DNA of 64,000 nucleotides from Chromera velia. Its lineage: Eukaryota. Numbering within the stretch: the stretch's first letter is position 1; each line of letters opens with the position of its first letter. Below are positions 1 through 37,555 of this stretch, in pieces. The notes under the pieces were generated by a model that was not told the origin of the DNA, made no database searches, and was given only the letters and a program-made list of their open reading frames with translations. The translations under genes were made by a program, and so were the position numbers. The DNA lies in contig JAHBMJ010000488.1 in assembly GCA_018398765.1 (NCBI GenBank), forward strand, positions 62,001 to 126,000, read 5' to 3'.

Positions 1-3000
1 GGATTCGAAGGTCAAAAAACGAAAATGGAGCGAAATCTCCTGAACGAAGACATGAAGAAGAGAGGCACTTGAACCCACTGAATGCTGGCAGAAAAAAACA
101 AATTGAATTAATAAGAGGCTGCTGTTCAACAAAACGAAAACCGGCGGCGCTTCTTTGCTTCTTTCCATGTGATGCACACACCCCATCTGACTGCCTGCCT
201 GGCTGACCGACCTCTCCGGGCAGGTCGATGTCCTTGTCGAGGTTGCACTGCCTGGCGGTAGCAACGATGGAGTTGCAGATGGAGGGTCCTCTTGCTTCGT
301 TCTCTCTGAGGGCCTGGTAGGACTTGACCAACTCGGAAAGCTCCTTCAGACCCTTGTACAGCCCGGCGTTCTCAGCAGGGGGGGTCAGGTAAGAGATCGT
401 GGCGGCGTAGGAGCTGCATTCATTCGTGTTTTCATTCATTCATTCATTCATTGATTCATTCATTCATTCACTCATTCATTCATTCACTCGTTCGTCATTC
501 ATTCACTCGTTCGTCATTCATTCATTCATTCATTCATTCATTCATTCATTCATTCACTCGTTCGTCATTCATTCATTCATCCATCCATACATTCATTCAC
601 TCATCCATTCATCCGTTCCTTCATTCATCCAGTGCTTTCACTTGTTTAGTCAGTTTCGGAGGGAGGGAGGGAGGCAGGGAGGGAGAAAGGGAGATTTCGT
701 GTCAACAGCTGCAGTGAAGCACGTGGAGAGAGACAGATAGGCGCATGCAATGCAAGGGCATGCCTCGAGGAGGAACTCAAGAAGCTGTGTTCCCTTTCTT
801 TTGGGGACAGGACACACACGCACACACGCACACATACACACACGGCCAACAGGCTGCTGACCGTCTCTTGGCGATTGTGGCTTCGGAGGGGTTGTTGGCG
901 GCGTAGTAGTAGAGGTTCGGGGTTGTGCCGATGAGTTTGTCGGGGTAGCATCCTTCGGACATGCCCACCTGCTTGCCGGGCATGAACTCCAGAGAACCGT
1001 GGGTACCGAAGTGGAGGACTGCGTCGGCACCGAAAACCTGCAATTTCAATTCCAATGTAAGTGCGTCCGTTGACGGGGGGCGGGGGCTTCGGGGAAGGCA
1101 CCAAAAAAACACAATACATCAGACGTGCTTGGGGGAAGGAAATTCAGGGTGCACCGAATAACCAATCGGCCTGCGGGGCGTTCAAGACTCAGGGCAGCCG
1201 TCTCTCTTTCTCTTTCTGACTTATGCACGATACACAAGTTGGCAAGAAGGCGATTCGCTCTGTAGATTCATGTATCGGTTCCTCGGTGATTGCTTTTGTT
1301 TGCCTGTATTTACTTTCATACAGAATTCTTTTTCTGGATGAAAGTAAATACAAAAACAATTAAAACGGGTTCCTCGGTGATTGCTTTTGTTTGCCTGCCG
1401 ACCTTCTCGAGATAGGTGTAGTAGGCGGCAAATCCGTGGTGGGGGGAGGCGGACTTTGCGAAGAGGAGTCTCATCGGATCGCCCTCGTACCCGAAGGTCG
1501 GCTGGATGCCAATGAAGACGTTGCCGAACTTGACACCAAGCACCAGCATGTTCTGACCGTCGCTGTTCAAGTTCCCGGGAGCAGGGCCCCAGTTCTCCTC
1601 CAACTCCTGAAAGAAGGAAAATTACATGCGTTTATTTTCATCCAGAAATGAAAAATGAAAATAAAAAATGAATTCTGTATGAAAATAAACGCAAGCAGGG
1701 CCCCAGTTCTCCTCGAGCTCCTGGAAGAAGAAAGAGAGAAAGAAGGAAGGAAAAAGGGCAAGAGATTTCATTCATACTGTGAGTGAAAAGGGAACCAGTC
1801 CAGTTCCTCGGCAGCCACGGGAACGGCGAGGGCGTAGATGGATTAGCAAGAAGGGCAGACAGAGTGTTAGGCAGAAACATCGGAACGGATGCTGACTGAA
1901 GAGAGAGAAGCAGACCGACCGACCGACCGACCTTGTAGTAGGGTGTGAGTTCCTTGTACTCCTTCACGGGCATTTTGTACGCCACGTTGAGTGTGGGGGA
2001 GTCGAACTTGGCCTCCTTGTCATGGAGGACAGAGTTCATCAACGCCTCAGGGGATTCGGGGAGGGTCTCGCCGAGATCGTACCCTCTCTCCTTCAGCTCA
2101 CCCAGAACCTGATCGCGGGAAGCAAATAAACAGAGGCAGATATACAATGAGTTAACGTTATCATACACGCAAAGGTGCTCCAGATCGCTCCTGCTGCGCA
2201 CACCCAGAGCCTGGACACGAAACATGAAAGGGAAGGGCGAACCCAGAGAGCCTTGAGACGTCCGACGGAAGAACTCACTCACGGAGGCAGCAGGAAAGGA
2301 ACACTATGCATGCGCCAAAACAAAAAAACAACAGACAGACAGACAGACCTGATAGATGGAGTTGAACACGTCCAGGTAGGCCGCCGTGCCGACGTTTCCC
2401 TTGTCGGGAGGGAAGGAGAAAACCGTCACTGCAACCTTCTTGTCCTTGTTGGGCTTCCGGCGAAGGGAAGACCACTTGGCAACGCGCTCAGCGAGGAGAG
2501 AAATACGGTCCTGCAGGTGAGTGAGGAGAGGAGATGGATGCATGTTTGTTCGTTCATTCATGAAGATCGATCAAGAAAGTAAACGTCTCCCTCTGTTCAA
2601 CCGGGCTAGGAACCTCCCTCGGTGATGGTAGACAGCGGGAGAGGAACCTTGTGGGCAACTAGGTATGAAAGCCGTTTGCAAAATGGCATGAAGAGACCGA
2701 GACAGAGTCACACACAGAGATCCCAAAAAGAAAGGAAAGGAGCCCTTTCGCCCCCCCCTCTTCTCAACAAAACGACCGACCAACCGCCATCGGGACGTTC
2801 CTTCCAGTCACACCCTCACGTCCAGCGAAGATGAGAGGCTCGATAGCACCATCGATCTCGGGCAGAGAGACCTGAAGGGAACGGAAGGGAAAGGAGAGAG
2901 AGCACAAAAGAGGTGGAGGCCCAAAAAGAAAGAAAGAAAAGACGTCCAAAAAAGAAAGAAAAAAAAGGATGACCCGGGATTTGGGAAAGAAAAGAGCCTC

Positions 3001-6000
3001 GCATCCTTTCTTCTTGCTTTCACGGACCAACTAATGAAAGCCCACTCTGCATGCGTGTACCTGTCTGCCCTGTGCACATCCCCCTCCCCCCCCCCCCCNN
3101 NNNNNNNNNCCCCCCCCCCCCCCCCCGACCTGCAATGCCACTTGCACAGGGTGGAGTCCGAGCTCGCTCTTCTTCCACTCCTCGAAGGTCTGAAACACAA
3201 GAGGCAGAGCGCACAGGTAGGGCCTGTTCAGTTTCTGCAGCACCTTCACGGCCTTCGTATGGTCCTGAGACGCTGGCCCCCCCACGAGTGCGAATCCCGT
3301 CAGGTTCACCACAGAGTCCACAGTCGGCTTCCCGTTTTTGTCGTAAAAAAATTCCTCCAGAGGACCAGAGTAATCGAGACCTGAGAAGAAATCAATAGAG
3401 GGGGGCGGAGGGAGGGAGAACAATCAACATGAAGCCGGGGCCTAACAAAACAAAAGAGACCCCCCCTCCATCTCTTGAGGCAAGTCGGCAGTCAGAACAG
3501 AGGTGTCCTCTTCTCATTCCACCACGCACTCTGATCAATCAAGAACACAAATTGATTGACAGTCCATCCCCGTCACACACTCACTTTCTCCATCCATCCA
3601 TCCCACCCAGCAGACCCACCAGCAGAGTAGATGGTGACCACACGGAGTCCCATCGCCTCCAGCTCTGCGATGAAGGACGTGTAGTGAGCTGCGTCCTTGG
3701 TGTTGATATGGGACTTCTGCACCAGCACGCCCACGGTCGGGGCTCTGTCGACGTCAATGCCTGCCTCGGGGCAGTGCACCTTGTCGTACCACTCCAGATA
3801 GGCCTCCGTGGACTCGAACACCTCATCGGCCACAGGGTGCCAGATTCCCTTGGAGGGAAGGAGGACGGGCTTGGTGATGCCGGAACGGTCAACCAGTTCC
3901 TGGCCGGCAATTCCCTGAAAATAATGGAGGGAAAAGGAGAAAGAGAAAAGAGAAGAGATCAGAGACAGAAGAAGGGAAGGAAAATGAAAGAAAGCGAAGA
4001 CGGGAAGGAGTTTTTCGTTTCACGTTTTCCCTCTCTCTCACCTGACGGTCGTTCTGCAAAGTGTCTGGCTGGTTCTCTTGGAGGAAGCAGAAGCAACAGA
4101 AGGAAAAAGATATCAAACATGAAAGCCGATGTGGCAAAGAGAGGTCAGCGTACAGACATGCAAACTTTGGGTGAACACAAGCCCGCAAGACTTTCTGGCT
4201 GCAGACACTGCGTCATGACGTCAAGGCAGGCCCTTTGTTTGTTTGGGTATCTGTCTGTGTGCATGGTCTTCTTTCTCTTCTAGCTGACTGACCTTGCAGT
4301 AGGAGTCGGCGACGTTCAGCAACAGAGCGCTGAGGTTCTCGGGGGAACCATCAAGCCAGTACTGCAACGAATACACAGACACAGGAGGAATAACCAGTGG
4401 AAGCAGCAGTCTAGAGAGGAGAGAGACGAGCGGAGCGTATGAATTCGTTCAAAGATGCAAATCCAGTCGAAGGCTAAATTAATAAAGAAGACGGAACAAA
4501 CGAGAAAGCTCAGGACAGACACGGACGAACGAAGAAGAAACAAACGGACCTGAAAGGAGGTGATGAAGTTCCGAGCGTCCTTCGCCTTTTCCATCGGGAG
4601 GTACTTCAGGACCTGCATGCAGCATGGGTGGAGAAACGTGAATTGAGAAAGAAAGAAAGAAACAAAGAACTGGACGTCCACGACATACATACATTCAATT
4701 TGACGATGGTTTTCTGAATGACTTCCTATCACATTCCTTAGATTTCTGTCCAGAACGATCCCTTTCACTCCGTGCTCTCACCGACCTCACCAAACTAGAG
4801 GCAGGCATCGGTGCCTCATCGCTTGTTTGTCTGTCTGATGTTGTTGGACCTCCAGCTACCTCGGCGGTTGTGCAGCCACACAAAACGTTTTCTATACAGC
4901 TAACGAACACGCCGAGACGTGCTCATAGACTAGGCTGGGTCAACAAATTCATGACCGGTAAATTTGCGTGCGTTGGTTTCTGTACACACAGAGGGTGGGT
5001 GGGGGCCTAGGGGCCTACCTGAGGGAGCGTGCGGACGAGCTTGAGCATGTCTTCCTCAAATTTGGATCCTCCCTTTGCCTTCATTTTCTTCATGAAGTCG
5101 CCGATGGGGCTCTTCTTCTTCCCGGCGTTGCTCATCGAGAAGTTTCCCACCTGCGTGCACTCACTCGTTCATTAATTGCATGCTTCGCTCGTTAATTCGT
5201 TCAACTAGTTACGAGGAAAGACACTAGTCCTTAGTGAGAGAAGGGGCAGAAGCAGTAGGCTACAAAGTTGTCAACACACAACCGCACACACAAACTTCCA
5301 CACAGGCGAAAGGGAGCCAAGAGCCAAAGAGAAAAAGAGGCGGCCATCACCTGTCGACACAAAAAAGGGGCTCTTTCTTCTTTTCTCATCTCATGCGACC
5401 AGCTCCTTTCATTGACCGGTGTCAGGAGTGCTTTGCTGCCTCTTCCTCCCCCCGTCCCTGCCAACCCAACCCAAACCAAGCCAAACCAAACGAACCTTCT
5501 GCAACCTCATCACCTCAGGAAGGGACGGGAAGATCAGACACGTGTCAAGCTGATCTCTGAAGGGAGTCACTGCCTCAACCACCTTCTCCGCCAGCTCCTG
5601 AATAAAAATCAGGGACCTGCACACACAGCCAGCCCAGAGAGAAGAAACAAGGGGACCATCATGCTCAGTGGACACAAAGCCTCAATCAAGCACGATGCAT
5701 GGATGAACGCAAACGTGAATACTGGCTGAGTCCGAGTCCTAGCAGGAAGGAAGGAGCCGATGGAGGAGGAGAGAGAGGGTAAAAGCGGGGGGTGGTGCGT
5801 GTATGCATGTGAGGGATCGATGAGATGGAGGATCTGAGGACAGAGGGAGCCGTGGGGTGGAAAGTTCAATTTTATCGCTTTCGCATTCACCCTGTTGAAT
5901 CTCTCTCGCGTTTGGAAGGAATGATCTTGGCCTCTCTTTCCGCAAACGCCTGAGACCACCTACCCCGCTCCCCTCCCGCCACCACCTGCGCCCCCACACT

Positions 6001-7025
6001 CCTCTCTTCCCCCTTTCTCATGCCCCCACGCCATTCATCCCTCTGCCCCCTCTTCTCTTTTCCCTTCACGCATGTCCCTCGGGCCCTTCACGCATGTCCA
6101 GCATGTCCCTCGGGCCCTTCCCCTTTCCGGCCGTGGGCTCTTCAGGCGACACACACACCTCCTCCCGTTCCTCCTTCCACGCGAACCCGAAGAAAAGCCG
6201 CTGAGAGACGGATGCGGTCGTCCCGGGCAGTCTGCGACTGAGACCCAGCTCACACCCACCCCCAACGTTCCTCGCTAGCTTCTCCGTGCAGCTTCCTCTC
6301 CACATCCCCTCCGCGACGTAAAAAGGCTGAAAGAAGCCTTGGCGTCTCTCTGCCCGTCTCTGCCCCTGGACTTCAAGTCCAGTCTTCGAAGTGACGTTTC
6401 CCAAGACTTTCATGGGCAGAACAGCTGGAAATGCAAGCCAAGTGACCCCATTCTTTTGCTCTCGTACCAAAATCACATGCGAAATGCAACCAACCACCCA
6501 AGCCTAGAAGGCCAAGAGAAAGGAAAGAAGGACTTACCCGATGAAAACATTGGCATCAGAAAGGTCGGCCTTCAACCTCTCCACGTTCTCAGGATCTCTC
6601 AACTCCTCAAGCAGATAACCAACGCACTCAACAGACACCCCCTTCTGTGAAGCGTTAATCTTCTGGCAAGCCTTGGTGAGGGAAGATTGATACTGAGACT
6701 CGAGAACAATGTAGACGACCTTGAACTTTTGCCTTGTGTCTGTCTCTGCAGGTTTTACCCTTCTTGCCTCCGGAGAAGACTCTGTGAACAGCCCTTTCGA
6801 TGGAGCAAGGCTCAAAGCTTCTTTTTTCTTTCCCTTTCTTTGGGTCTTTTTCTCAAGTACTGAAGTTGCTGCAAGAACAGTCTCCTCAGAGTCCCTTACT
6901 GAGGAAGTTACAGAACGAATCGGAGACAAAGCACTTCGACTGCCACCAAAGTCAACAGGTCGAAAGCGAAAGGCCTCCGATCCTGTAAAGAAGGCACCAG
7001 CCAAAAAGGGTGCGAAGAACCTCAT
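1..7025 (-). CDS. chlH: Magnesium chelatase subunit H, plastid-targeted, multi-exon; 3' part runs off the left edge of the window
   Basis: About 13 GT-AG-bounded exons join into ChlH: 7025-6538 ([19 protein letters not shown]...[15 protein letters not shown]...[10 protein letters not shown]...ANVFIG), 5616-5496 ([12 protein letters not shown]...[10 protein letters not shown]), ~5150-5019, ~4612-4550 ([15 protein letters not shown]), ~4362-4293 ([10 protein letters not shown]), ~3914-3618, ~3380-3130 ([15 protein letters not shown]...[11 protein letters not shown]), ~2871-2785 ([10 protein letters not shown]), ~2511-2349 ([19 protein letters not shown]), ~2109-1933, 1606-1403 ([29 protein letters not shown]), ~1038-862 ([16 protein letters not shown]...[17 protein letters not shown]), ~413-212 ([17 protein letters not shown]). 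These are hallmark ChlH/BchH motifs. Confidence 0.96.
416..630. repeat. (TCAT)n microsatellite in a chlH intron
   Basis: Degenerate tandem TCAT/TCAC/TCGT tetramers; they generate the spurious HSFIHSF ORFs. Confidence 0.9.
1277..1397. mobile_element. Micro-hairpin insertion, copy 1, with 30-bp flanking direct repeat
   Basis: GGTTCCTCGGTGATTGCTTTTGTTTGCCTG occurs at 1277-1306 and 1368-1397. Inverted arms TGTATTTACTTTCAT (1305-1319) and ATGAAAGTAAATACA (1338-1352) surround ACAGAATTCTTTTTCTGG. Confidence 0.7.
1580..1730. mobile_element. Micro-hairpin insertion, copy 2, with ~37-bp direct repeat that duplicates a chlH splice acceptor
   Basis: 1580-1616 and 1694-1730 match with 3 mismatches. Inverted arms TGCGTTTATTTTCAT (1627-1641) and ATGAAAATAAACGCA (1679-1693); GAATTCTGTATGAAA core shared with copy 1 in the opposite orientation. 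Confidence 0.75.
3099..3109. other. Assembly gap (N run) within a poly-C tract
   Basis: N characters; other gaps at 49070-49084 and 63889. Confidence 0.95.
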
Positions 7026-8090
7026 TACAACAAACACGCACAAGCAGAATTAAGCAGCAGGAAAGAAAAACTGCACCGAAAGCGGGCAGAGAAAGAGCTG
7101 CTTTCTGCACTAAGTTTTCGAAGCAGCTTTTCTGAAAGCAGATCAACTACTTCGAAAACGTGGACACGGCACGAAAGGAAAACTGTTCTGCAGTCCGATC
7201 ACAAGACCCTATACGTACGTAGAGCAGTATGAATGTTAGCGCCGGAGCAGTTTCTTCCTACGAAGAGTGGAGGAACAGAGTTTTTAGAACACCTTCAAGA
7301 GACTGGAGCTCAGAAGAGACCACTTTACTTGCAATTAAGGTGAAGCGCGGCCGCGCCGCAAAATCACGGAAAAAAAGGCCTCGGAGCGCAGCTCAACTTC
7401 TTTGTTTGGGCCCCAGAAAAAATTTTCCCGCATAACGAACTCCGACGAAGCTATATATATTTATATATATAATTAATTAATTAATTAATATTAATTAAAG
7501 CATGCCTGCATTTATTAATAATTAATCATGGTCAATTGGATAATCGTCTTTTGAATTTTGTCATTTCGGCACTCACCCCTTCCAAACGCGGTGTATCACG
7601 TCGTCTCGGAGGAGGGGCCCCGCGGCCCCGCGGCATGCATTTCAGTGTGTCTCCCCTAAAAAAAAAAAGTCCTTTTCAGTCGCGGCCGGATCCGTCACGC
7701 ATCAACGCGTGCGCGACACGCGGCATGCGAACGGCACAAAAAACGACCGGCACGTTCATACAAAGAGGAGAAAATCGAAGATTTCAATCTTTGAGGGAGT
7801 TTGGTAGGGTGAAGACAGCTCTCTGTCTTGAGCAAGGGTGCATGAGGAATGCGCGTCGAAGATGGGCTTTAAGTTCCCGCTGTCGGCAGCGTGTGAGTCT
7901 AGTCAGAGGAGAGAGCAGTTGAACCGGACGGCCATCTGCAATCGGGGTTGACTTCGTATGTCTGTCTCAACAATCTCCGATTTGTTGATCGAAACACCCG
8001 ATCAGTTAGCCGCTTGAGCAAGCTTCTTCCATTGCCTTGTCGGCTGTGCTTAACTTAGGCTCTGTTTCTGGTCTCATCTCGCGCGGCAAA

Positions 8091-10154
8091 ATGGCCCACC
8101 AGCAAAAAGGAACTACTTCGACTCCGAATGCTAGTAGGGAGGTGAAATACGCGTTTCTGGAAAAGACCTCCATCTGTCGCCATTACCTTGTGGGCAGATG
8201 TGAGTTTTAGTGCAGCCAGATCGTAGCTTCACTCTCTTATGCGTTCATTCGATCCGTTTGTCGGTTTGTTTTCTGTCCCTTCTCCCTTTTATATCTTTAA
8301 CATCTATCTGTCTCGTCTCCTCGTTTACGTGCATGTGTATTTCGAATATTTGTGTCGGGTGCAGGTCGTATGGGAAGAGTCTGCAGATTCGCTCACACGG
8401 ACACGGAGTTGAGGGACAAACCGAATCTGGAGCGCACAAACCTCTGCTTCTCTGTCACGAAGGTCAGTACGAGCCACTGGCAGTCTCCTCGTGTGTTCTG
8501 AAAAGCAGTTTGCTCCCCGCCTCTCTTTTAGTGTACAACCATCCAAGACTTTTGTGCAAGGACATGCGTACGACTGTTTGAATGAAAAGACCCCTTCGTA
8601 CGACCGTGAAGGAAAACTATTACCAAAATGTAACGCATTTGAATCGATCCTTGATTCAACGTATTTTTGCCACTGACTGCAGGGAATCGCATGCAAGAGG
8701 GGTGAAGAGTGCAAGTACGCCCACTCTACGGATGGTGAGTCAGTCTTCTTTTCTTCTTTTTTGGTCTTCTCTTTTCTTCTTTTTTTGTCTGCTCTGCCTG
8801 TCCGCAAGAAGACAGGTCCATTTCTTTCTCTGTTACCCACTCTTCCTCCCCTCTTCGGCAATTTTGACCCTCCTCTCTTCTCTTGTGCTCCTGTCCCTCT
8901 GTTCGTCTTCTCCTCCTGTCCGTCTGTTCGTCTTTCTTTGCTCCGACGGCACTCTTTCTCCGTCCTTGTTTTGTCATAGAAGGATCGTCGTAGAAGAGTC
9001 GGGTAGTCTTTTCTTTCGATCGTTCTCCCTGTCCCGCTCCATTGCAGAGGCATAAGAGTGCCCGACCGAACATCACTGTTTTGTTTGCGGTCTGTCTACA
9101 TTCAAATCATTCCTTCATCAATCCACCCCTTGGTTCACTGGTCATGTTGGTGAGTGCAGAACTGCAAGAGGGGCGCGACAAGTTGGCAGGCACGAACCCC
9201 GCCCTCCTGTCGCGACTCTCCTCTGCCGCTGGAAGGGAGGAGGAAGAGGGAGACGAACAAGAAGAAGGGAGGGAGGAGACATGGGTTCAAGGAGTGAACG
9301 GGAAGGGGTCACCTGTCGATCCCTCCTCTCTCAAACACGTTCCTTCTTCTTCAACTAGTCCGACAGACACTGTAGACTCTGTCGACGGTCCAGGCTCCGC
9401 TTCCACTTTCATCAGTCGCACGACGAGCAGAGCACCCGAAGAACATCTGTCGAAACAGCAAAAGCAGAAAGATGGCCCGGAAAAGCAAAAGGGCGTGCAT
9501 GCGAAGGGAAAGGTGGAGAAACACCAGAAAAGCTCTCTTTCTTCTCTCATCATCGAGAACCCGGAAAACGTGGTCAACGGGGGTGTTTCCCATCAGTCTT
9601 CCCTTTCTCTCGAAGACACATTTGCTCTCTCTCGAGGTCTGTCCTTCGCAGCTCATCAGCAGCCTCCCGGGGGTTCTGCAAACGATTGGTTCCAGCAAAA
9701 GCAGTGTGTGGAGACGGAAAAGCCGTCCTTCTCAGGACAGCAGAGAGAGGGGACGGGGATGAAAACGGCGGTCCCCTCTGCCTCTGTGACTTCGTCCGAC
9801 GAGAACTCGCCCTCACCTCTGCATGAAGAAAAGATGGGGAGGTTGTGTGATCTTCCTCGAGTTCTGCCGTCCCCTGTGCGGCCTGTTCAGGCAGGAGCAG
9901 GGGAGGTGGGGGGGCGAGGTCAAGGAAAGCCGTCTTGTTCGTCTTCGCCTTCCCCCCATTTGCCTTCAGGATGGCAACGTTTGTTCGGTCCTGCGATTGT
10001 CCTTCCCGAGGGAGTGGACCCCGACAGCGGGTGCCAGAAACAAATCGGGGAGTACCTGGCAGACGCTTTTCTTGCCCAACAAAAGGAAAGCTCGATGAGC
10101 ATGCACAGGACAAACTCACGCACTGCTGGTGGGGAAAGGAAGATAAAGGAGTAA
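8091..10154 (+). CDS. Tandem CCCH zinc-finger (TZF/ZFP36-like) putative RNA-binding protein, 4 exons
   Basis: Exons 8091-8199, 8365-8462, 8683-8734 and 9160-10154 join in frame at GT-AG sites. They give KTSICRHYLVGRCRMGRVCRFAH (C-x7-C-x5-C-x3-H), linker ELRDKPNLERTNL, CFSVTKGIACKRGEECKYAH (C-x8-C-x5-C-x3-H), then a long low-complexity tail. Confidence 0.85.
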
Positions 10155-12665: not shown

Positions 12666-12696
<31 letters not shown>

Positions 12697-13849
12697 TTCT
12701 TTCTTTCCTTCCTTCCTTCCTCCCTCTCTCTCTTTCTCTCTTTGTGCTTCCTGTAGCTCCACCTCGATCATTCGTCTGCCTGCTTGTCTGGCGGGTGGCT
12801 GCTCTCCCTCTTCATCGACTATCTGCCTGCCTGCCTTTCAACTATGTGTCGTCATGAGTCAACGAACGTGTTTTCTTAACGGTCGTTCGCAACTCTAACC
12901 GTTCTTCCTTTCGTTGGTTTTGATCGAATTTTGGCATTTTTTTCTCCTTTCTTCGTATCTTTTCTGATCCACCTTTGTCCACCTTGTGAGCCCTGTCGGT
13001 CTGTAGTTTGTTCCAGGTTCGGTCATTCACGCAGTCGGCCAACTATTCTCTCAATCTTTTCCTGCTTCCTCATTGCATTCAGTCAAGAAGAGACGCGAGG
13101 GTGAAGAGAAGGGGGAGTGTGTTGGTCGCTGCGTGAGGATGGACAGACTCGTGAGAGACCAATTGATTGATATGACGTGAACGAGATGAATGGACGGACA
13201 AACAAGGAGAGAGAGAGAAGACATCAAGCAAGCAAGAGCCATTACGTCGATGCTATTCCTTTCTTTTCGTTTCGAGGACCTTTTGCTTCACTGCATACTG
13301 CATCTGGTCAGGTGTGTCTCCCTCACTCTTCAATCAAGCAACTGCATCTTGTCGATCGTTTTTTGCAGTTTCCTTCCTTTCTTTCTGTCTGTGGTTCTAC
13401 CTGTAGTCCTGTTCTTCCCCCCTTGAAGAAGCTCAGTGAGCTCTTCCCTTCCCTTTCATGCATGTCGGCCCGCTTTCCTTCCATTCCGGCGAAGGCAACA
13501 CGGGCCTGTAGTAAGCGCAACTGCATCCGTTCCCTTTTGTAGCTTCTTGTGCTTGCAGACAAATGAAATGAAAGACAGGGTGCGAGTCTCTCCGTTCCCC
13601 CTTTCTTCGTTCGTTCGTTCGTTGCTGCATGATGCATGAATTGAATGAAGGGCGTCTGCGTCCTCCCTCATATTTTTGCGTAGTCGGCAGGCTGAAATGA
13701 TGCCATGCCAGGTAGTCTTTTTTTTCAAGCGAAATTAAGATCTGTTCGTACGTCTGTCTCATCTCTTGCATCGTTTTTTGTCTTTCTTTCTTTCTTTCTG
13801 TCTCTTTTGGCTGCCGCTGGCGCGTTGGGCATAAGACACAATGTCTCCC

Positions 13850-13880
<31 letters not shown>

Positions 13881-16207: not shown

Positions 16208-16292
16208 CTGCCGTTGCCGGGGGTGACCTCTACAAAACAAAACAGTGACTGAGCTTAAAGGCATCAATAAATCACTTATCACTTATCTCTTA
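16208..16292 (+). mobile_element. Probable 3' tail of a non-LTR retroelement (LINE/SINE), copy A
   Basis: CTGCCGTTGCCGGGGGTGACCTCTACAA...AAAGGCATCAATAAA followed by (TCACTTA)x2-3; homologous to 59902-60012. Confidence 0.55.
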
Positions 16293-20400: not shown

Positions 20401-20668
20401 TCGCACATGAGATGGCCAAGAGGGCAAAAATGTGACGGTTATTGGGGCCGAAGATCATCTCAGGAGATCTGGGGTCTGCCTCTGCCTTCTGATTCTCCTT
20501 CTCATTCTGACGTAAGTCAAGGAGAATGCTCTGCTTGTGAGAGGGGCTGTGGGAGGGGAGGCGGGGACTCCACCCGTGGGCCCCCTGGCGAGACAACCGG
20601 GGCCGCACACGGACCCCGACCACCACAGCCAGGAGCAGAGCACCCAGGATCAGCCTTGGCATCGGCAT
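17413..20668 (-). CDS. Hypothetical secretory-pathway multi-pass membrane protein with acidic and coiled-coil regions, 2 exons
   Basis: Exon 1 20668-19575: signal-like MPMPRLILGALLLAVVVG, TM IFALLAISCAITIGVLIGFCVF, E-rich coil, further TM. Exon 2 18712-17413: several hydrophobic helices, then coiled coil and G/A-rich tail. Junction GGA AG|gtgcgt...ggcag|G TAC is in frame. No family recognised. Confidence 0.75.
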
Positions 20669-21874
20669 GAGGGCAGAACTCTTCGTCGCCGTGAAGGACA
20701 AAGCTCCTTTACCCTACCAGGCACAGGTTGGTATCAGGAAGATACACAGGCCCTGCTCGGGGATCCTGCATGGGTGTCTAGCACTTCTCTTCGGAGGGAT
20801 AAGCTTGTTACCAACAAAAGATGGTCATCGAACGAAATTTGTCAACACATCGTTCTTTGCCTTTCTGTGTGGTCGTCTTGCCGCGGGTCTCTCTCGTTCT
20901 GTTTTTGTGCGTACGTCAAGGACCCTGGCTAGACCCGTCAAGCCCTGCTGCTCTGCTTTCAGAATGTTTTAGCGACGCAATCCACTCCCCCGAAATCTGT
21001 ATGCAAATGTTTGAGCTACACAGGGGCGGAAGCGTTCCATGGCGATCGAGGCCTTTTGATGCCAGTCGCCTATAACTCCGGACGACGACTCTGGCCTTTT
21101 TCTTTGACTTTGTTTGTTGACAACAGACCTGTGTATCGGTCAAACAAATTTCGCGATCGCGCGCATGCATGCATGATCCTGCCAAGCAAAAATTTTGGCA
21201 TCGGGGCCGGCCCTTAATTACCGTGGCCCCCGGCCATGGTATCTGTTAAGGCCCTTAGCCGCACCTATGGAAAAAAAAAAGTCGAATTACCAATAAATCG
21301 GGTTACATTTGCCTTTCGGGACCCGCTTTCCGGCAACTGTATACAGCGCGTGGCGAACATGCATGCACCTTTTGTCTAACCTTGATGTATCAGTACATAT
21401 ATGTAAAAACACACATGGAAAAGAATTGTACGTAGCTAGATTCGATCATCTGTATAGTTTTCGAGGAAGGCGATAAAACACACCGTCTAAGTGAAACTGT
21501 TCTGAATTGCTCCGTTGTTTGACTATGCTACCAAGCTCAGTGGCAAGTTAAGACATGCCAACTTACAGAGTCAGGAGTAAGCCGCACCATGACTGAGTGC
21601 ACTTGACAAAGAGGAAAAACAGTTAATTTGATCTGCAGGAACCTCTTTTTGCCCGTCTTCTTTCTCTCTACTTGGCCTCTCTTATTGTTCTTCAGCACCT
21701 AGTTTTTCGACTTCCTTCTACCTCCACTTGAGGATTTGGGACGCAAAATAACGCAAAATACTGTCTATATATAGTGTGTATCGCTGTGGATCCTGTAGTA
21801 TTTGCTTTGAAATATTGTGGAGAGGCTCACCGCATATGGGTCTAGCGCTTGGTGAGTTCAAGAGGGAGAGATGT

Positions 21875-23230
21875 GAGCAGAAGCCATTTGGGCCTGTGGA
21901 TAAAGCTAGGTAAGTAAATCTATGAACAGAAGCCGTTTGGGGGTGTGGGTGAATGTTTGGGCATGTAGGTGCACAAGCACAGAAAGTGTGTGTGCAGTAA
22001 CAGAATCCGCTTAGGCCTGCAGATGGATGAATGAAGAGAGACAGAGAGAGCGAGCGTGTTTATGAGTATGTATGAGTTTGTGAACAGAAGCCGTTTGGGC
22101 GTGCGGGCAAGACAAGGAGAACAAATATGTGAACAGAAGCTACTTAGGCCCATGGATGAATGAAGAGAGATCAATTGTGTGTCATTGAAGAAAAGCCGCT
22201 TGGGTCGCTGGTTAGGCCTGTGGATGAATGAAGAGAGATCAACTGTGTGAACAGAAACATACAGAAGCTGCTTGGGCCTGTGGATGAGTGAAGAGAGACA
22301 GGGAGAACGAGTGTATGAACAGAAGCCGTTTAGGCGTGTGGGTGAATGAAGGGAGAAAAGGAGATACAAGGAGAGCGAGTGTGTAAATAGAAGCCGTTTG
22401 AGTGTGTGGGTGAATGAAGGGAGACAAGGAGATACAAGGAGAGCGAGTGTGTGAACAGAAGCCGCTTGGGCATGCAGGCAAAGAAAGAGAGATAAGGAGA
22501 ACGAGCATATAAATAGAAGTTAGGAACAGGAGCCGTTTGGGCCCATAGATGAATGAAGAGGGATCAATGGTGTGTTATTGAACAAAAGCCACTCGAGCCT
22601 ATGGCTAGGCCTGTGGATGAATGAAGAGATATCAAGTGCGTAAACAGAAGCCGCTTGGGCCTACTGATGAATTAAGAGAGACAGGGAGAGTGGGTGTGTG
22701 AACAGAAGCCGTTTGGGCATGTGGGTGAATGAAGAGAGACAAGGAGATACAAGGAGAGCGAGTGTGTGAATAGAAGCCGCTTGGGCCTCATGCAGTGAAT
22801 CAATGAAGAATAATGCTAGGAATAATGAAGAGAGACATGGAGAGCGAATGTGTAAACAGAAGCCGTTTTGGGTGTTACGACGGTGTGGGTGAATGAACAC
22901 AGGCAGGGAAAGCGAGTCTGTGAAGCGGTGTGAGCAGGCTAGGTGAAGAGGAGCCGTTTGGGCGTGTGGGTGAATGAAGAGGGATAAGAACTCGCATAAG
23001 CATAATGTTTGCATGGGCGTGTGGGTACCTGAATGAATAGAGACAGCCTGTCACTAGGAGAGAATGAGACTCAGTGTGTAAACAGAACTTCAAGCCGCTA
23101 GGGCCTGAAATAGAAATAAATGAAGAGAGACAAAGAGAGCGAGTGTGTGAACAAAAGCTGTTCGGGCGTATGGATGTGAGAGTATTAATAGAAGCCGTCA
23201 ACTTTGGGCATGTGGGGAAGTGATCGAAGA
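21875..23230. repeat. Diverged minisatellite array (~20 units, ~50-90 bp) with higher-order duplication
   Basis: Approximate consensus GTGAACAGAAGCCGTTTGGGCGTGTGGGTGAATGAAGAGAGACAAGGAGAGCGAGTGT. The block starting ~22148 recurs ~390 bp later, from ~22540. Confidence 0.85.
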
Positions 23231-24495
23231 CAGACAGGGAAAATGAGGGAGTAAGTGAGTGAGTAAGTGAGACAGTGAGTGAGTAAATGAGTGAAGAAAG
23301 CAAGAATGACTCAATGAGTCAGTGACTAAGTATGTTAGTGAGTGAGTAAGTGGGCACAGTCAACTACAGCAACTAATACAGCAAGCGTAGCAAGCATGTA
23401 GTTTTGGTCTTGTATAACGTTGTGTTCAAACATTTTATAGACTAGCTAAGACTAGCTCACAATCTCAGTCACAGATGATTTAAAAGAGCAAGTTGATAAT
23501 AGAAGGCGTATATAATGTTTGGCTACTACTAGAATGATCTATAAATGAAAGTAAATGAAAGATAATGAAAGAAACTTTAAGATTATAGCATGTGTGTCTA
23601 TATGTAAAAGACCTATATATATATTGACTCCATAAATAAAAAATAAAAATGTAAGTAGATTTAAGCGGGGAGCATTGTGATTTTTATTTTATATATTTTT
23701 TATTTTTTTTATATAAGCAAAAATAATTTGTTAAAGATTTATCAATAATGTGTTGGTGCGGTTACAATTTGATGATTGTGGTTTTTGTTATGCATGCCGC
23801 GTCCCCGTGTATGAGGGGTGGATCTAGCCTAGTCTGTTACAAGGTTCCGGTTCGTCCCATCTGTTCTAAATCTAGGAACACTGCTCATTGATCAATTTCA
23901 TTTTCTTTTTCACGCTTATTCACGTTAGCACCATGTGTTAGCGAAGTCCTTGTACGTCATTAATTTTCTTATTAGCAAACATATCTAATAGCAGAGCTCT
24001 TCTTATTTTTTCGATCTTCTCAATCGCCTTGAAGCCCGTCCAGCCGTCTCCGGCCCTCTGCGGCATTTACAGATACCGCGGCTACGCCTTTGCGCGGCCA
24101 ACAACCTATTGCATGTACCACGATTGAATGAGCGCACCTCTCACCCTATCTCACCCATGGGGGCCACGGCATGTCCCGTAGGGACATTACAATGTGCAAT
24201 ATTAGTTGTGCGAACTTTTACGGGCCGCAGAGACGGAGGTGAGTTGAACTGAGCTTAGTGAGGTTGTCCTTCACACTACATTCGCAATCAAGGGGAAGGG
24301 AAGGGTAACCACTGAGTGCAATTCTGTGACTCAAGACTGTGCTACTCCCACAGCTCTCCGCAGTGACGTGTGTTGTCATCAGAGTCCCGAAACCTGCGCA
24401 ACAAGAAACTTAATTGCTTCGGAAGACTTCATGGACATCTTTGTGTGCTCCTGCAACGGCTCGAGTCTTTTGAACGTTTAAAGCGGGGCCACTCT

Positions 24496-27400
24496 ATGAC
24501 GGCTCCTGCTGTGTTTGCCATGTCAAGATGGCTAGTTGTCTTTGGTTGTTTCATGTGTGCCGTTTGTGTGGGAGCAAGTAGACGGGAAGAGGAGACGGCG
24601 GAGACGGAGAATCCAGAGGCGCTGGCAGAGACGGGTAGAAGTGAACAACCACAACCTCTGGACGAAGACCTTGAGCTGTCCCTCAGCCTTCGTGCCAAGG
24701 CCGCAGAAACATTGGAGCCTGGCTCGATCATTGACGGGCGGTTTCGTCTGGTTGAAAAGATTCACGAGTTCGGGGCCTCCCGGCAATTCAAACAACTCCC
24801 TGACCCATTCGACCAATTACACAGCACGTAAGTCGATCAGCCAAGAGAAAAACTGGCTTTGCCTTCGATCAGATGGGTGTGTGGACTCTCCAAGAGTTCA
24901 TTCAGAATCCCACCGACACTCTCTGATCTTGAACGGAAGAGCGTAGCCTCTCCTTTCTGTCATCTCCAGCTGCGGACTGCTGAGCCTCTCTCATTTTAAG
25001 GCCCACAACACTAAGTTCCGCGCCCAATCACACCTTCTAGCCACCCTTTTCCCGTGGCTTTTACAGAGACGTCAGTACAGTGATGACAGAAACATTCGTG
25101 CTGCCTGCAGAGAAGAAGGCCAGTGGCCCCTATGGCCTGCCACCCTGGACTTGAAGGCTCTCCAAGAGAGAGGGAGAGGGTCTGCATCCTTCAACTACCC
25201 CCTCGCCTTCAGAAGAGACAACTACACACCCTATAAGAGACTGGGAAAGGGGGCGTTTGGGGAGGTCCGTCGGTCTGCCTGGAATGTTTGCAGTGGAGCG
25301 CCATGAGTTTGGATGGACTGTGAAGTTGTGAAGTAGTACGTGAGCTGGTGTAGGTCTGCCGTCGAGTTTTAGGCAGGGACTTCAGGGAAAGGGGGGGAGG
25401 AGGGTCCGGTTTCGGGTCTATCGGTCTGGAAAGGTTGCAATCTTCCCTTCTGTTTGGCTTCTTCCTGTCTGTTTTGTTTCGTTTAGGTTTGGCGTGCTGT
25501 GGCTCTGGACGGCGTCCATGGGTACAAGTTGGTGGTCCTGAAGCGGCTGTTGGTGGAAATTGGGGGGGAGAGGGTGCGGCTGTCTGGGGAAAGAGAGGTG
25601 AGGTTGGGCAGTAGGGGGGGAAGAGAAGAGTTTGAATGAGTAAGGGCGATGGATTGGCTGACTGACAGACTGACTGATAGAGAGATAGGGGGATATTGAT
25701 CGATGCATTGATTAATTGAATCTACATATTCTGTCTTTTGTCTTTTTTTGTTCGTCTGCTTCTCCCCCATTGCCTCTATCCTCGACTTTTCTTCCCTTTC
25801 TCCGTCTCATCATGACAGAGACGGGACGTCTGACAGAGCAGAGGGGACCTGTGTGTGTAACCTGACAGACAGGAGGAACAAAGAGGACAAGCCCGGTGGC
25901 TGTGTCCAGTCGTCTCCGTGCCCCCGCCAGGAAAGAGGAAAAAAAAGATGGAAGGAAAAATGGCTGCATAGAAGGAGCGTTCTGCCAGGCCTCTCGCGTT
26001 CCGTCTCAAATCAATCCTGTTGCCAATGACTATTTTTGTTCTCGTTCGTATTTGAAGTGAGAGTCAAACAACTATTCATTCTGATGAGTGGATGCATGGA
26101 TGGATGGATGCAGATCTACTTCGGCGAATTGTTCCGTGGTGCCCCTCACGTCTCTCGTTTTCTGGATTGGTTTGTGAAGCCGGCGAGTGGGCGTTCTTCA
26201 TGGGCAAATGGAAAAGAGAAGAATAAAAAGAAACGGGCAACGGGAAAGAAAACAAAAGGGATGTCAGGAAAGAAAAACCAGCAGGAGAACTCCACAGAAA
26301 ACTTGAGCCTCCAGAGAAGCGACGGTGGCTCGTGGATGAGGTGGATGCCTTCCTTCTCTTTCTCGTTCTCGTTCTCGTTCTCTTCTTTTCTGCCTGTTCC
26401 TTCCGTGCCCTCCCTCCCTGCACTGCCTTCCTTCCCTCGACTTCTTCAACTAGGCCCCTCGTTCTCCTCTTCCTCGGTGCCGGAGTCCATGCTCAGACTT
26501 CTGCCGTTCCGTGAGACCTTCACGGGGCTTGTGCCGGCACCTCTGAAAGCCTGGTGGAATCAACAGAGAGTTGTAAACGGCGGGCATGGGCAAATGATTG
26601 AGAGACGGAGTGGGTGGGCAGCTGAGCGAGAGGGGTGGGGGGCAAATTCAGAAGGCTCCCGAAAGCAAACACCTCCAGGAGACACAGGGTCCCCTTTCGA
26701 AGGGGAGGAGGATGATGACCTCTGGCTTGTGTTTGCTGATGAGGGCAATTCGTTGTATAATCAGATTTTCGTTGCAGAGGAAGCGAAGGGAGGGGCACTA
26801 AGCAGGTCTTCCTTCTGGTGGTCTCTGAAATCAAGTCCCTTCGGACAACAGGTCAGAGACAGACAGACAGAGTAGGGAGGACTCAGGATCAAATTCAATG
26901 CACTTCGCGATCTTCTGTGTTGTTTTCCCATTCAGGACTCTGTGCTGTCCTTTGAAATCCTCTCAGTAGTTGTTTCCAGTCCGTGTGCAGATGCACTGTC
27001 CTGAGTGCACGATGCTATAGCAAGGTGTATGCTCTTCAGTGGTCAAAGACTCTGGCCGTCTCGCCTGATTCAATTTGTTTGCTTCCCTTCCCTTTCCTCC
27101 CTTCCCTTCTGACGCACGCAGGTTTTCCGACAGATCGCCAGGCAGACACTTGAAGGACTCGCGCTCCTCCATTCGCGAAACGTAACGCACCGGGACGTGA
27201 AGCTGGCCAACCTGCTGATCTCCACACCAAAAGGACGCCTCTCGATTCGGCTGGCAGACTTCGGGTCTGCTGTGCAACGGACGAGAGAAGGGCCTGTCAA
27301 TTTACATGTGGCCTCCCTCTACGGACAGGTCTGCCTGCCTGCCTGCCCGCCTCTCCCACGCCCCTCCGCCCCTCCTACGTACCCCGAATCATCTGTACAC

Positions 27401-30400
27401 GGATGCGTGGCCAACACATAAACTTCTTTCGTTTGATACTTTATACACGCAGAGACAAGTGAACCATTTCAAGAATATCTCCAGGTCGAATCGTCGCCGG
27501 ACCGGAGATGGAAGACTTCGAGTGTCGTGTGTGTGAATGTATGTACCTATATCTGTATGCATATCTGTGTGAATGATATGTATGTAGAGACGTGCACCGA
27601 ACGCATTTTGTTTTTTCTGGAATACGTATCTACCTCATGTAATGTGACTCTATGTGCAGGTGGGGCCTTCCGAGGATGAGGAGACGGAAGGGTACCGGAG
27701 TCCGGAGGCACTCTTCCCTGAGTTCTATCTTGGGCAGGGGGGGCAGCATTCGTACTCTTCTGCTTCGTCTTCGTCAGGGGAAGACGGGACGGTGGACGGA
27801 GGAGGTTTTGAGGAGGAGGGAGAGAGTTTCAAAGGGAGAGAGAATGTGATGGGTTCGTTAGAGGAAGAGGAAGAGGGGGGGCACTCTGGGTGGCGGCAGC
27901 CGTCGTATGACTTGTGGTCGCTTGGAGTGGTACTGCTAGAGATTGTCCTGGGAGAAATTGGCGTGTTTGAAATGGGGGACGAGAGGAAACGAGCCAAGGT
28001 AATAGTGACTCACGTAGAGATTTGCCGGATGCTTTGATTTGTAATGTGTGACGGGGGAGGAGGGCAGCTAGGAGACACAGAAGTTATGAAGGCCGAGTTT
28101 GTTGGTTGAGTCTATAGCGGGGACCTATTAAGTTGGTGATGTCTGGGGAAGGGCAGACAGGATGTATGAGAGGAGAGGAGAGGAGAGGAGAGGAGAGGAG
28201 AGAAATGGACAAGCGAGGGAGTGGGAGAACGCTTTCTTTCGGACCTCGTTCTTGTTGTGGAGCCTATTTTTTATTTTTTCTTTCTGGAGACGGAATGAGT
28301 CTTATTGCATTCGTTTTGGTTTGTCTCTGTCGTTCGGAATCGGACGAAGAAGAGTGGGAGTGTGGAGAGAAAGTGCGGGCTGGTTCCTTTGATTGCCTAC
28401 TTGTCCTTTGCTCGTTTTTCTGTTTGACTTTTTGAATGAATGAATGAATGAATGAGTCTGTCAGTCTGTCTGTTGGTCCGTTCGTCAGTCATTCTTCCGC
28501 CCTCTTTGTGTTTTCGTCTGGTCACTCTGTCCTTGCATGCACCAAATTCTTGAACCTTCTATTTGAAATTCTCTGGATAGCGAACGGAGTGGGTCTCTTT
28601 TCTGCCTCTCTCATGTTCTTATTCGCCTCTCTCCTCTCTTCTCCTCTCTGAATTGAGTGTGTGTGTGTGTGTGTGTGTGTCTGTGTGTGTGTGCAGATCG
28701 AAAAACTATTGGAGGATGATGAACGTCTAAGGCAGCACGTTCTCTTCCTTCACGCACTCCAGGGTAAGGTAGACAGATCGAATTAATTATGTTCTCTCAG
28801 ATCGATGCATGCCGTGCTTCTGTTTTCTCGCATTGTTTTTTCTTCTTCTCTTCTCTTCTCTTCTCTTCTCTTCGTTCGTCATTCTTCTTCTTCTTCTTCT
28901 TCTTCTTCTTCTTCTTCCTCTTCTGTTATTCCTCCCTTCTTCCCTACCCCCCTCTCTTCTTCTTTCTGCTGCCTGCAGAGATGTGCCTGGGGCCCCTACC
29001 TGCGATGCCCCTGCATGAGAGACCGCGGTGGAGACAGAGCCGGGACAAGAAGAGAGAGGAAGGAAACAACGGCAACGAGGGGCAACAACAAGAAGGGGGT
29101 CTGGAAAGCGACACAGGGGAGTCATCTCTGTCTCTCTCTCGACGGGCACGGACAGCGGAAAGGGAAGACACCGAGAGCAGCTCAGAGAATGAGAAGTGGG
29201 AGGGAGATGATGGAGATGTGGTGTCATTTGAACCTTCAAAGGACTATAGGGCTTCGAAACAATCGGGTGACTGGGGGGACTTGAATGAAAATGACGAATG
29301 GCCTGCGGCAGGAAAAGAAATCGAATCTTCTCCTGCTGCTGCTTCTGCGTCTTCTACCTCTGTATGTGCTACTGAGGGGCCTGTAAATCGTGTCGGTGAA
29401 GAAAGTCCTGCTCCAACCGAAATGACTGCTGACGAATCTGTTTGTATCTTTCAGGGAGAACCGATGACCATCGCATGGGCTGATCACGGAGGTGATTCTA
29501 ATTCAGGGAATGTTGTAACGATAGTCTCAGCTGAGAGATACGGTAGCGCTCCACAGTGTACAGAGAGAGAAGGATCCGGTTTCCCCGATCCTTCTCTCGT
29601 TGTGTCAGAAACAGACACAGCATTCATGTCCTCGTCATCTGCTCCTGGCCTTACTTTATCATGGCAAGACTTCGAGGAGGAGGATGGAGGTTTGCTTTTT
29701 CTTCCCGACAGCCCCCGAACACAGCATTCCTTTTCCAGTTCGTCCAACACACAACAGTCTGGTAGATCCCGCGGTGAGGGAACGGACGTGACTCCTCTGC
29801 CCCTTTCGGGTCGAAATTTTCGACCTGTGCTTCCTGCGGGGGCTTCTTCCTTTTTGGAAATGAAATCCTCCACATCGATCTCGCCCTCAAAATCCCCCGT
29901 GTCGCTTGATGAAAGCGCTATGAAAGATCCAAAGGAGACAAAAAGATTTGAATTGGAGGGGGGAGAGGAGGACCGAGGCGGACAGGCGGGAGATGAAGGA
30001 GGCACAACAACAAGAGGGAGAGGAGGACCAAAAATGGAAGTCCCAAAACACTGCTCAGACCCCCAGGTGAGGAGAAGGGAAGAGACAAACGAAATTCGAA
30101 ATGGAAGGAGAGACAGGCCTGTCTGCTCAATGACCGTTCTTGTCTGAATGAATCAATCCTCCGGCTTTTGTTTCAACAATAATCTTCGCCGTCATGCAAT
30201 GTGTCTCTTCCCTTTTTCCCTTCATTCTGGGGTGTGTTCGTCCATTCACCCTGTCCTTTTCTCCACCCCAGGGAGCCGGTCCGCCCCTTTGGCCTGCGTC
30301 CCATAAAAGAAAAAGAAAAAAGAAGGGTCCCTCCCTGGAAAAAACAGAAGGGAAGGGAAGACACGCAATCTGATATTCAAATGCAAAGAACAGGAACGGC

Positions 30401-30668
30401 GGAACCTCTTCTGTCCATCTTTTTGTTTTCTATCTCTCCTTTTCGTTCTTTTCAGTTTGCTGAAGCTTTGAGGAGCCGCGATCCCTGAAAAGAATTCTGT
30501 ACGAAAATAAATGCATGCATCTTTTCAGTTTGCTGAAGCTTTGAGGAGCCGCGATCCCTCTGGCGTCGGGCTCCCCGTCTCTCTGGCTCGGGATCTTCTG
30601 AGGAAACTGCTCGAGGTGCAGCCCCAAGTGAGCAGCCAGACAGCGAGTTGCCACAAGCACTCGATTGA

Positions 30669-30700
<32 letters not shown>

Positions 30701-37517: not shown

Positions 37518-37555
<38 letters not shown>

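What the first reader, a model, noticed from the sequence alone, without database searches (positions are those of the whole stretch)
1277..30559. Family of micro-hairpin insertions with 30-40 bp target duplications that regenerate splice acceptors
Seen: three loci (1277-1397, 1580-1730, 30447-30559) in two unrelated genes share the insert core GAATTCTGTA(T/C)GAAA(A/G)TAAA(C/T)(G/A)CA. Two copies form a perfect 15-bp-arm hairpin; the third is a half arm. Each insert sits between long direct repeats of host sequence (30, ~37 and 40 bp). In two cases the repeat spans a 3' splice site plus the first 9-10 codons (chl[10 protein letters not shown]; kinase [10 protein letters not shown]). Using the upstream acceptor hits an in-frame stop (TAA in the chlH insert, TGA at 30486-30488), while the downstream copy restores the intact exon. 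The third copy sits 3 bp from the GT of a chlH donor. Inference: a tiny non-autonomous element, or a templated DNA-repair product, with unusually long TSDs. It either prefers splice junctions or survives only when the TSD recreates the splice site. This would lengthen introns and leave poison acceptors. It differs from classic introners, which supply their own splice sites, and from MITEs with 2-10 bp TSDs.
Basis: partly seen in the sequence, partly recalled or inferred. Interest (0 to 1): 0.88.

Follow-up and report, generated by a model that had tools for sequence, protein, structure and literature searches.

The report
Tiny hairpin insert duplicating splice sites
In the alga Chromera velia, a tiny repeated DNA hairpin sits inside introns between two 30-40-base copies of the host sequence, and in the one gene with RNA data the exon is spliced correctly at the second copy, so it is likely an undescribed mobile element that probably enters at staggered DNA nicks and would lengthen introns without breaking genes.

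Summary
The window is Chromera velia. Three 33-77 bp inserts share a 24-bp core and lie between host duplications of 30/30, 34/37 and 40/40 bp; two are hairpins with 21-bp arms. Contigs of two DNA runs from different studies carry both chlH inserts without a difference, so these are not assembly errors. The same runs hold many other copies: hairpins with variable loops, and apparently tandem forms. Spliced contigs of two studies use the downstream chlH acceptor; the upstream 'poison' acceptor is not among the 15 of 18 joints shown. The inserts lie inside introns bounded by host sequence, so they are not introners; duplication length and the one-armed copy do not fit MITEs. Best reading (about 50%): a minimal non-autonomous retro-type unit copied into nicks 30-40 bp apart, Penelope-like in form; no partner enzyme found. 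All three copies, and a fourth duplication with other filler, touch splice sites (naive P 0.0002-0.02 for three, in a chosen window), so targeting is possible but unproven. No empty site was seen; the kinase locus has no read evidence.

The parts
1277..1306 (-). Locus 1, host duplication copy downstream in the chlH transcript (intronic); last 2 bases shared with the element end
   Evidence: 30 of 30 identical to 1368-1397
1305..1352 (.). Locus 1 hairpin: arms 1305-1325 and 1332-1352 (21 bp, one mismatch), 6-nt loop; core with GAATTC on the minus strand
1353..1367 (.). Locus 1 A-rich filler, 15 nt, not significantly templated from the duplication
   Evidence: p 0.74
1368..1397 (-). Locus 1, host duplication copy starting 3 bp after the GT donor (1402-1401) of the chlH intron 1402-1038
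   Evidence: RNA joint 1035-1401 in X3 and X4
1580..1616 (-). Locus 2 live copy: 10 intron bases with the used acceptor AG (1608-1607) plus 27 exon bases (ELEENWGPA, Leu as TTG)
   Evidence: RNA joint 1605-1931 in X3 and X4; P0001
1617..1693 (+). Locus 2 insert, 77 nt: 10-nt filler, arms 1627-1647 and 1673-1693, 25-nt loop containing an 11-nt re-copy of the arm; holds the TAA (1624-1622, minus) reached from the upstream acceptor
1694..1730 (-). Locus 2 spare copy: unused acceptor AG (1722-1721) plus 27 exon-like bases (Leu as CTC)
   Evidence: 34 of 37 identical to 1580-1616; not among joints shown
30447..30486 (+). Locus 3 upstream copy: 9 intron bases with AG (30454-30455) plus 31 exon-like bases ([10 protein letters not shown]), then TGA at 30486-30488
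30487..30519 (+). Locus 3 insert, 33 nt: one arm only, flush with both duplication copies, longest outer end seen in the window (ends in TGCATGCA)
30520..30559 (+). Locus 3 downstream copy with AG (30527-30528) that keeps the kinase frame open to the end of the domain
   Evidence: 40 of 40; gene model P0043, (a prediction, not RNA evidence)
1..7025 (-). Host gene 1: magnesium chelatase subunit H (chlH), 5' part, runs off the window start
   Evidence: 100% match to P0001, Chromera velia CCMP2878
24520..31001 (+). Host gene 2: 1075-aa protein kinase (approximate extent from tblastn)
   Evidence: P0043
37425..37577 (-). Comparison event without the core: 41-bp duplication (40 of 41) spanning a GT donor, with a filler that re-copies 17 of 19 target bases

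Best explanation
The inserts are copies of a dispersed 30-60 bp hairpin-forming repeat of Chromera velia that lie in introns between long host duplications, and they are likely a minimal non-autonomous retro-type element that would be copied into two staggered nicks 30-40 bp apart by an enzyme encoded elsewhere. Steps: (1, inferred) a nuclease nicks the two strands 30-40 bp apart; (2, inferred) a freed 3' end primes copying of a short template, helped by partial pairing with the element end (5 of 6 bases at locus 1, 3 of 4 at locus 2, none at locus 3); (3, inferred) copying is sloppy: it can stop at the loop (one-armed copy), re-copy subunits (variable loops, tandem forms) or give the full hairpin; (4, inferred) fill-in duplicates the stretch between the nicks; (5, shown for chlH) when that stretch holds an acceptor plus exon start, the downstream copy is the one spliced and the protein is unchanged, while the upstream copy remains as a spare that would read into a stop. 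Net effect: introns grow by 70-115 bp per event.
For: One end is fixed and flush with the duplication in 3 of 3 copies while the other end and the loop vary. A one-armed copy sits between perfect 40-bp repeats; 397 (X1) and 400 (X2) contigs laid on 1861 bp, 238 and 235 only in part; summed depth 3740 and 6985 in the bin over the arm against 15-29 in unique bins; 5 of the 8 pieces shown for each DNA run are other two-armed copies; loose ends in 19-22 contigs per group stop at the same outer end with unrelated flanks (agreement 0.39-0.46); 13-15 contigs go on with a repeated subunit on the inner side; one joint 1334-to-1301 fits a head-to-tail tandem. The locus 2 loop re-copies 11 nt of the arm (p 0.01). 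Penelope-like elements show truncation, partial tandems, inverted copies and variable duplications (PMC8557442, passages; PMC3846280, passages), and one such enzyme nicks and extends both strands in vitro (PMC11167929, parts 1-2 of 4). Long duplications are on record for LINEs (126 bp R9; Dualen median 900 bp; PMC9977147, passages), and Chromera has 5.2 Mb of LINEs (PMC4501334 supplement 11). Spliced contigs use acceptor 1606 in two studies.
Against: No partner enzyme: 0 reverse transcriptase, endonuclease or transposase families among 164 window frames scanned, and the genome could not be searched. No Penelope class is listed for Chromera and no paper holds both terms. Reported rotifer Penelope duplications are 8-10 bp. 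The same inner mismatch is in loci 1 and 2 and in at least one other copy (X1 record 3, 0 other letters), and the arms covary at 3 of 18 pairs: the hairpin is inherited as a unit, which a DNA element with terminal repeats explains as well. No poly(A) tail common to the copies; the template strand cannot be told. No empty site seen. A fourth long duplication has other filler, so the duplication may come from general repair.
Confidence: 0.5

Rival explanations
1. Host break repair makes the duplications (two nearby nicks, fill-in, end joining with templated filler) and merely captures an abundant small hairpin DNA or RNA as filler; the unit has no enzyme of its own.
For: The fourth duplication (41 bp, 37425-37577) has the same form without the core, and its filler re-copies 17 of 19 target bases. 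The locus 2 loop is a slippage copy. The 3 differences between the locus 2 copies lie within 10 bases, as error-prone fill-in might leave. Tandem duplication from paired nicks and polymerase-theta templated inserts are recalled, not read here (one search found no such paper in the library).
Against: 3 of the 4 long local duplications outside the tandem array carry the same core, with a fixed outer end also in other contigs; random capture would not favour one 24-bp sequence with one fixed end. The locus 1 and locus 2 fillers are not copied from the target (p 0.74, 0.69).
Confidence: 0.25
2. A very small MITE-like DNA transposon: the two arms are terminal inverted repeats, moved by a transposase that cuts with an unusually wide stagger, as the Mycoplasma element IS1630 does.
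For: Two 21-bp arms that covary between copies at 3 pairs and keep one mismatch; other two-armed copies in the DNA runs; 6.3 Mb of non-autonomous class 2 elements annotated in Chromera; IS1630 makes 19-26 bp duplications (PMC2853133, passages).
Against: The one-armed copy lies flush between perfect 40-bp repeats; extra filler lies between one arm and the duplication at loci 1 and 2; outer ends are shortened by 4-6 bases where the target resembles them; tandem and re-copied subunits; eukaryotic DNA-element duplications cited are 3-9 bp (PMC9860276) or 10-15 bp (PMC7789003).
Confidence: 0.17
3. Assembly artefact or chance repeats.
For: Locus 3 was not checked against reads; X1 may be the source of the window.
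Against: One contig of X2, a different study, spans 1305-2347 with 0 differences and another 849-1331; X3, which differs at 6 listed places, covers 1010-1334. 0 of 100 shuffles give the motif.
Confidence: 0.02

Closest known systems
Non-autonomous Penelope-like elements (PMC8557442 passages; PMC3846280 passages; PMC11167929 parts 1-2 of 4)
   Same: Truncated, inverted and tandem arrangements of one end; palindrome at the inverted junction; variable duplication length; both strands nicked and extended in vitro.
   Different: Here the whole unit is 33-77 bp, duplications are 30-40 bp against 8-10 bp in the rotifer copies, no hammerhead or other Rfam family reached its cut-off, no partner found, none on record for Chromera in my searches.
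LINEs with long target duplications: R9 of rotifers (126 bp), Dualen of Chlamydomonas (median 900 bp) (PMC9977147 passages; the R9 paper itself not read)
   Same: Long host duplication flanking the insert, ascribed to widely spaced nicks.
   Different: Those are coding elements or their truncated copies; this is a tiny hairpin with no known parent and a narrow 30-40 bp range in 3 of 3 cases.
Introners (PMC9860276 passages; Amoebophrya introners, PMC7789003 passages)
   Same: Repeated, AT-rich, hairpin-forming sequences in introns of an alveolate relative; a splice site can come from the duplication.
   Different: Introners create new introns and have 3-9 bp duplications; these copies lie inside introns whose other end is host sequence (61 of 365, 77 of 325, 33 of 461 bases) and relocate an existing acceptor.
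MITEs; IS1630 and 'insertion with long target duplication' in bacteria (PMC2853133 passages)
   Same: Non-coding unit with inverted ends; long variable duplications occur in those bacterial cases.
   Different: One-armed and tandem copies, filler and sloppy loops; eukaryotic host; the bacterial cases carry genes.
Replitrons (PMC10288648, parts 1-3 of 7 and section 9 part 1 of 2)
   Same: Variable duplications, one fuzzy end and a subterminal hairpin in Replitron-1.
   Different: No short direct terminal repeats here; that paper found none in alveolates.

Membership tests
Introner | The repeated element itself forms a new intron end to end | tested here: not met
   RNA joints give introns 1402-1038 and 1931-1607; inserts are 61 and 77 bp inside them; locus 3 is 33 bp of a 461-bp predicted intron
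Introner | Short (3-9 bp) or no target duplication | tested here: not met
   30, 37, 40 bp against PMC9860276
MITE | Terminal inverted repeats at both ends | tested here: inconclusive
   Present in 2 of 3 copies, absent in locus 3; filler lies outside one arm in both two-armed copies
MITE | Short, family-constant target duplication | tested here: not met
   30, 37, 40 bp
MITE | Cognate transposase-coding element with the same ends | not testable with these tools
   No genome held; none among 164 window frames
Non-autonomous Penelope-like element | Truncated, inverted and partial-tandem arrangements of one end | tested here: met
   One-armed and head-to-head copies in the window; subunit repeats and one tandem-like joint in contigs (short sides of 20-28 letters)
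Non-autonomous Penelope-like element | End shared with an element encoding telomerase-like RT and GIY-YIG endonuclease | not testable with these tools
   No genome held; no paper with both terms
Non-autonomous Penelope-like element | Hammerhead ribozyme in the terminal repeat (absent in Naiad and most Chlamys) | tested here: not met
   29 Rfam matches at E<=5 in 1100-1900, all far below cut-off, none a hammerhead
SINE / truncated LINE end | tRNA-, 5S- or 7SL-derived head | tested here: not met
   No such Rfam match in 1100-1900; inserts only 33-77 bp
SINE / truncated LINE end | 3' tail shared with a resident LINE | not testable with these tools
   Loose ends on the inner side have low agreement (0.47-0.49), so no single long parent dominates the contigs shown; LINE sequences of the genome not available
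Replitron | Short direct repeats at both termini | tested here: not met
   Ends are inverted, not direct; definition from PMC10288648

The most novel reading that the evidence does not exclude
A mobile element aimed at splice junctions: the machinery cuts at a near-fixed offset, 9-10 bases upstream of an exon-intron or intron-exon junction on the gene's sense strand (seen at loci 2 and 3 and at the fourth, core-less duplication), so that the 30-40 bp duplication carries a whole splice site and the insert lands in an intron by design. That would be a safe-haven strategy built on duplication length, and would seed hundreds to thousands of stop-coupled spare acceptors across the genome.
Probability: 0.13. 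Interest if true: 0.88.

Novelty: new variant of a known kind. Interest (0 to 1): 0.57.

Why it matters
If the long duplications are general, this is one of the smallest eukaryotic mobile units, with duplications as long as the element itself, in a free-living relative of apicomplexan parasites whose introns are much longer in total than those of Vitrella (60.2 against 16.4 Mb, PMC4501334 supplement 10). It offers a concrete route to intron lengthening and acceptor replacement without intron gain, and natural tandem acceptor pairs that test how this spliceosome chooses between two identical AGs: at chlH the first AG, with a long pyrimidine tract, is skipped. Repeat pipelines with minimum lengths and short-TSD rules would miss such a family (inference). 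If it proves to be repair filler, it is a modest note on mutation in this alga.

Tried and rejected
No whole genome is held, so no census. Exact-pattern scans: 0 hits in metagenome contigs, 0 in viral contigs; a relaxed pattern gave 1 metagenome hit, L001, with no second arm seen and no flanking repeat of 8 bp or more: taken as chance. No further copies in the window. No Rfam family at its cut-off; the miRNA-type matches only reflect a hairpin. No mobile-element protein family in 22 + 142 window frames (frames under about 95 aa, low-complexity frames and most of the two host genes were not scanned). The idea that the locus 1 filler is a fold-back copy of the target failed (p 0.74). RNA folding does not clearly bury the upstream chlH AG: it is unpaired, with the exon bases after it paired, so structure does not explain its being skipped. 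No run was on record as RNA ('no RNA holder listed'); X3 and X4 are treated as RNA because they skip GT-AG introns exactly. Summed contig depth gives a rough 550-750-fold excess but is not a copy number; window density scales to 1,900-26,500 copies only if the window is typical. Earlier findings on this genome: none. Not-in-print claim rests on searches, over open-access papers only; supplements 13-16 of PMC4501334 were not searched and repeat databases were not available, so a curated consensus may exist.
Full report
Source. An exon at 3621-3914 (minus) matches a magnesium chelatase of Chromera velia CCMP2878 at 100% and Vitrella at 67%; an exon at 28981-29997 matches a 1075-aa C. velia kinase at 100%. 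Both proteins map exon by exon onto the window. No whole genome is held, so everything genome-wide below is indirect.

Observation. The core occurs exactly three times, plus once with 3 mismatches as the second arm of locus 2; 0 in 100 shuffles. A profile of the five arms finds nothing else in the window. The flanking repeats are 30 of 30, 34 of 37 and 40 of 40 identical; inserts are 61, 77 and 33 bp. Loci 1 and 2 fold into 21-bp stems with one mismatch. Between the two loci 3 of 18 predicted pairs change on both sides and none breaks, while the mismatch stays at the same place (two sequences only). Outside the tandem array at 22-23 kb, the window has four local duplications of 30 bp or more, and three of them enclose this core. 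One correction: at locus 1 the duplication begins 3 bp after the donor; the insert begins 35 bases into the intron.

Real DNA, and a family. Nine runs were listed, seven holding the chlH stretch, from four studies. Four were laid on 760-2620. In X1 (possibly the source) and X2 (another study) one contig spans 1305-2347 and another 849-1331/1332, all with 0 differences: locus 2 is bridged whole, locus 1 by two overlapping contigs. 397 and 400 contigs were laid, 238 and 235 only in part; some belong to microsatellites at 1899-1932 and 2331-2348, but summed depth peaks over the arm (3740 and 6985 against 15-29 in unique bins and 434-1009 in the main microsatellite bins). That is a 550-750-fold excess, which the tool warns is no copy number; 'hundreds or more' is the safe reading. 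The tables were cut (32 of 1301 pieces, 24 of 268 loose-end rows, 15 of 18 joints, 12 of 66 between-letter rows). Among those shown: 5 of 8 pieces per DNA run are other two-armed copies, four of them inside 1.1-2.0 kb contigs at single-copy depth; one has 0 other letters and a loop 5 bases shorter; groups of 19-22 contigs stop matching at the same outer end (TGCATG, often with CGG outside it) and go on into unrelated flanks; 13-15 contigs repeat a subunit on the inner side; one joint runs from 1334 back to 1301 with two letters between, as a head-to-tail tandem would. One group of loose ends is only 32-33 letters long (20 and 19 contigs). That is what a flanking repeat of 31 bp or more would cause in an assembly with 31-letter words (word size recalled); it is a hint that long duplications are common, but the other group has long flanks (255, the cap), and other causes of breaks exist.

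Splicing. X3 and X4 are only guessed to be RNA, but both skip three GT-AG introns exactly. Both join 1931 to 1605, i.e. they use the downstream acceptor, and show 0 other letters over 1401-1605, so the transcript carries the TTG copy. No joint to 1720 is among the 15 of 18 shown; contigs drop rare forms and a stop-containing form would be degraded (general knowledge), so poison splicing is neither shown nor excluded. The protein P0001, also held in a transcriptome collection, reads through without the extra peptide. For the kinase only a gene model is at hand; it uses the downstream acceptor, which is the only one that keeps the end of the kinase domain, but this is a prediction. X3 differs from the window at 6 listed places and still covers 1010-1334, so locus 1 is older than that divergence and no empty site was seen. 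CTC is 26 of 66 Leu codons in the chlH pieces counted and TTG 7, so the spare copy at locus 2 may keep the older codon; this is weak.

How it most likely works. Shown: fixed outer end, variable inner end and loop, long flanking repeats, downstream acceptor in use at chlH. Inferred: two nicks 30-40 bp apart, primed copying of a short template, fill-in. The target next to the fixed end resembles the element's last bases at loci 1 (5 of 6) and 2 (3 of 4) but not at locus 3, as priming by partial pairing would leave. The locus 2 loop holds an exact 11-base re-copy of the arm (p 0.01). The one-armed copy, flush between perfect repeats, is hard to get from cut-and-paste and easy from copying that stops at the loop. 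This repertoire resembles Penelope-like elements (PMC8557442, passages; PMC3846280, passages; PMC11167929, parts 1-2 of 4), and long duplications are known from some LINEs (PMC9977147, passages). Against it: no partner was found, none is listed for Chromera (PMC4501334, passages, section 34, supplements 10 and 11), and the inherited mismatch with covarying arms shows that the hairpin travels as a unit. I put this reading at 0.5, repair with captured filler at 0.25, a wide-stagger MITE at 0.17.

Splice sites. All three duplications span or nearly touch a splice site. With intron and intergenic totals and mean intron lengths of 250-500 (20 introns of the two host genes average about 333, approximate ends), a tolerated 35-bp event would touch a site with probability 0.06-0.27, so three of three has P 0.0002-0.02. 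Survival alone therefore does not explain it. But n is 3, two copies flank one exon, and the window was picked for this pattern. A fourth duplication, found here and lacking the core, spans a GT donor; it and loci 2 and 3 all start 9-10 bases upstream of the junction, while locus 1 does not. A taste for pyrimidine tracts or microsatellite edges, which crowd these intron ends, is a simpler cause than true targeting (inference).

Known systems. Not an introner: the inserts are a fraction of introns with host ends and the duplications are far above 3-9 bp (PMC9860276, passages; PMC7789003, passages). Not a standard MITE. Not a Replitron: no direct terminal repeats, none reported in alveolates (PMC10288648). 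Bacterial insertions with long duplications exist (PMC2853133, passages). Ten searches of open-access text found no description of this family. Earlier scan notes describe look-alike cases in prokaryotes and in fish; these are unchecked leads.

Verdict. Real, dispersed, apparently undescribed; a new variant of small non-autonomous insertions, marked by a duplication about as long as itself. Mechanism and splice-site targeting stay open until a genome-wide census. Interest 0.57.

Noticed in passing
window 37425-37577: Fourth long duplication (40 of 41) spanning a GT donor between a copper-monooxygenase exon and an NHL-repeat exon (peptidylglycine alpha-amidating monooxygenase-like layout, name recalled); filler lacks the core and re-copies 17 of 19 target bases.
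   Followed up: partly
window 1010-1334: In X3 an unspliced contig covers this part of the hairpin-bearing intron at depth 30.5 against 289 for the spliced form, while most bins of the next two introns have depth 0; not seen in the shallower X4. Possible retention or slow splicing; contigs cannot show levels.
   Followed up: no
window 1712-1726 vs 1598-1612: The three differences between the locus 2 copies cluster within 10 bases and two of them swap one Leu codon for another (CTC, TTG), while the hairpin arms show no decay.
   Followed up: partly
window 21873-23192: Degenerate tandem array, at least 15 copies of a 46-bp core at spacings of mostly 49-84 bp, upstream of the kinase gene.
   Followed up: no
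window 58946-59197: 40-bp inverted repeat pair (80%) with A/T tracts around an AT-rich 172-bp spacer, in an AT-rich stretch; could be an unrelated small DNA element.
   Followed up: no
window 32208-32288: 22-bp direct repeat (20 of 22) around a 37-bp spacer with a short internal hairpin-like segment; no core.
   Followed up: no
window 6062-6120: Short three-fold tandem duplication inside a chlH intron.
   Followed up: no
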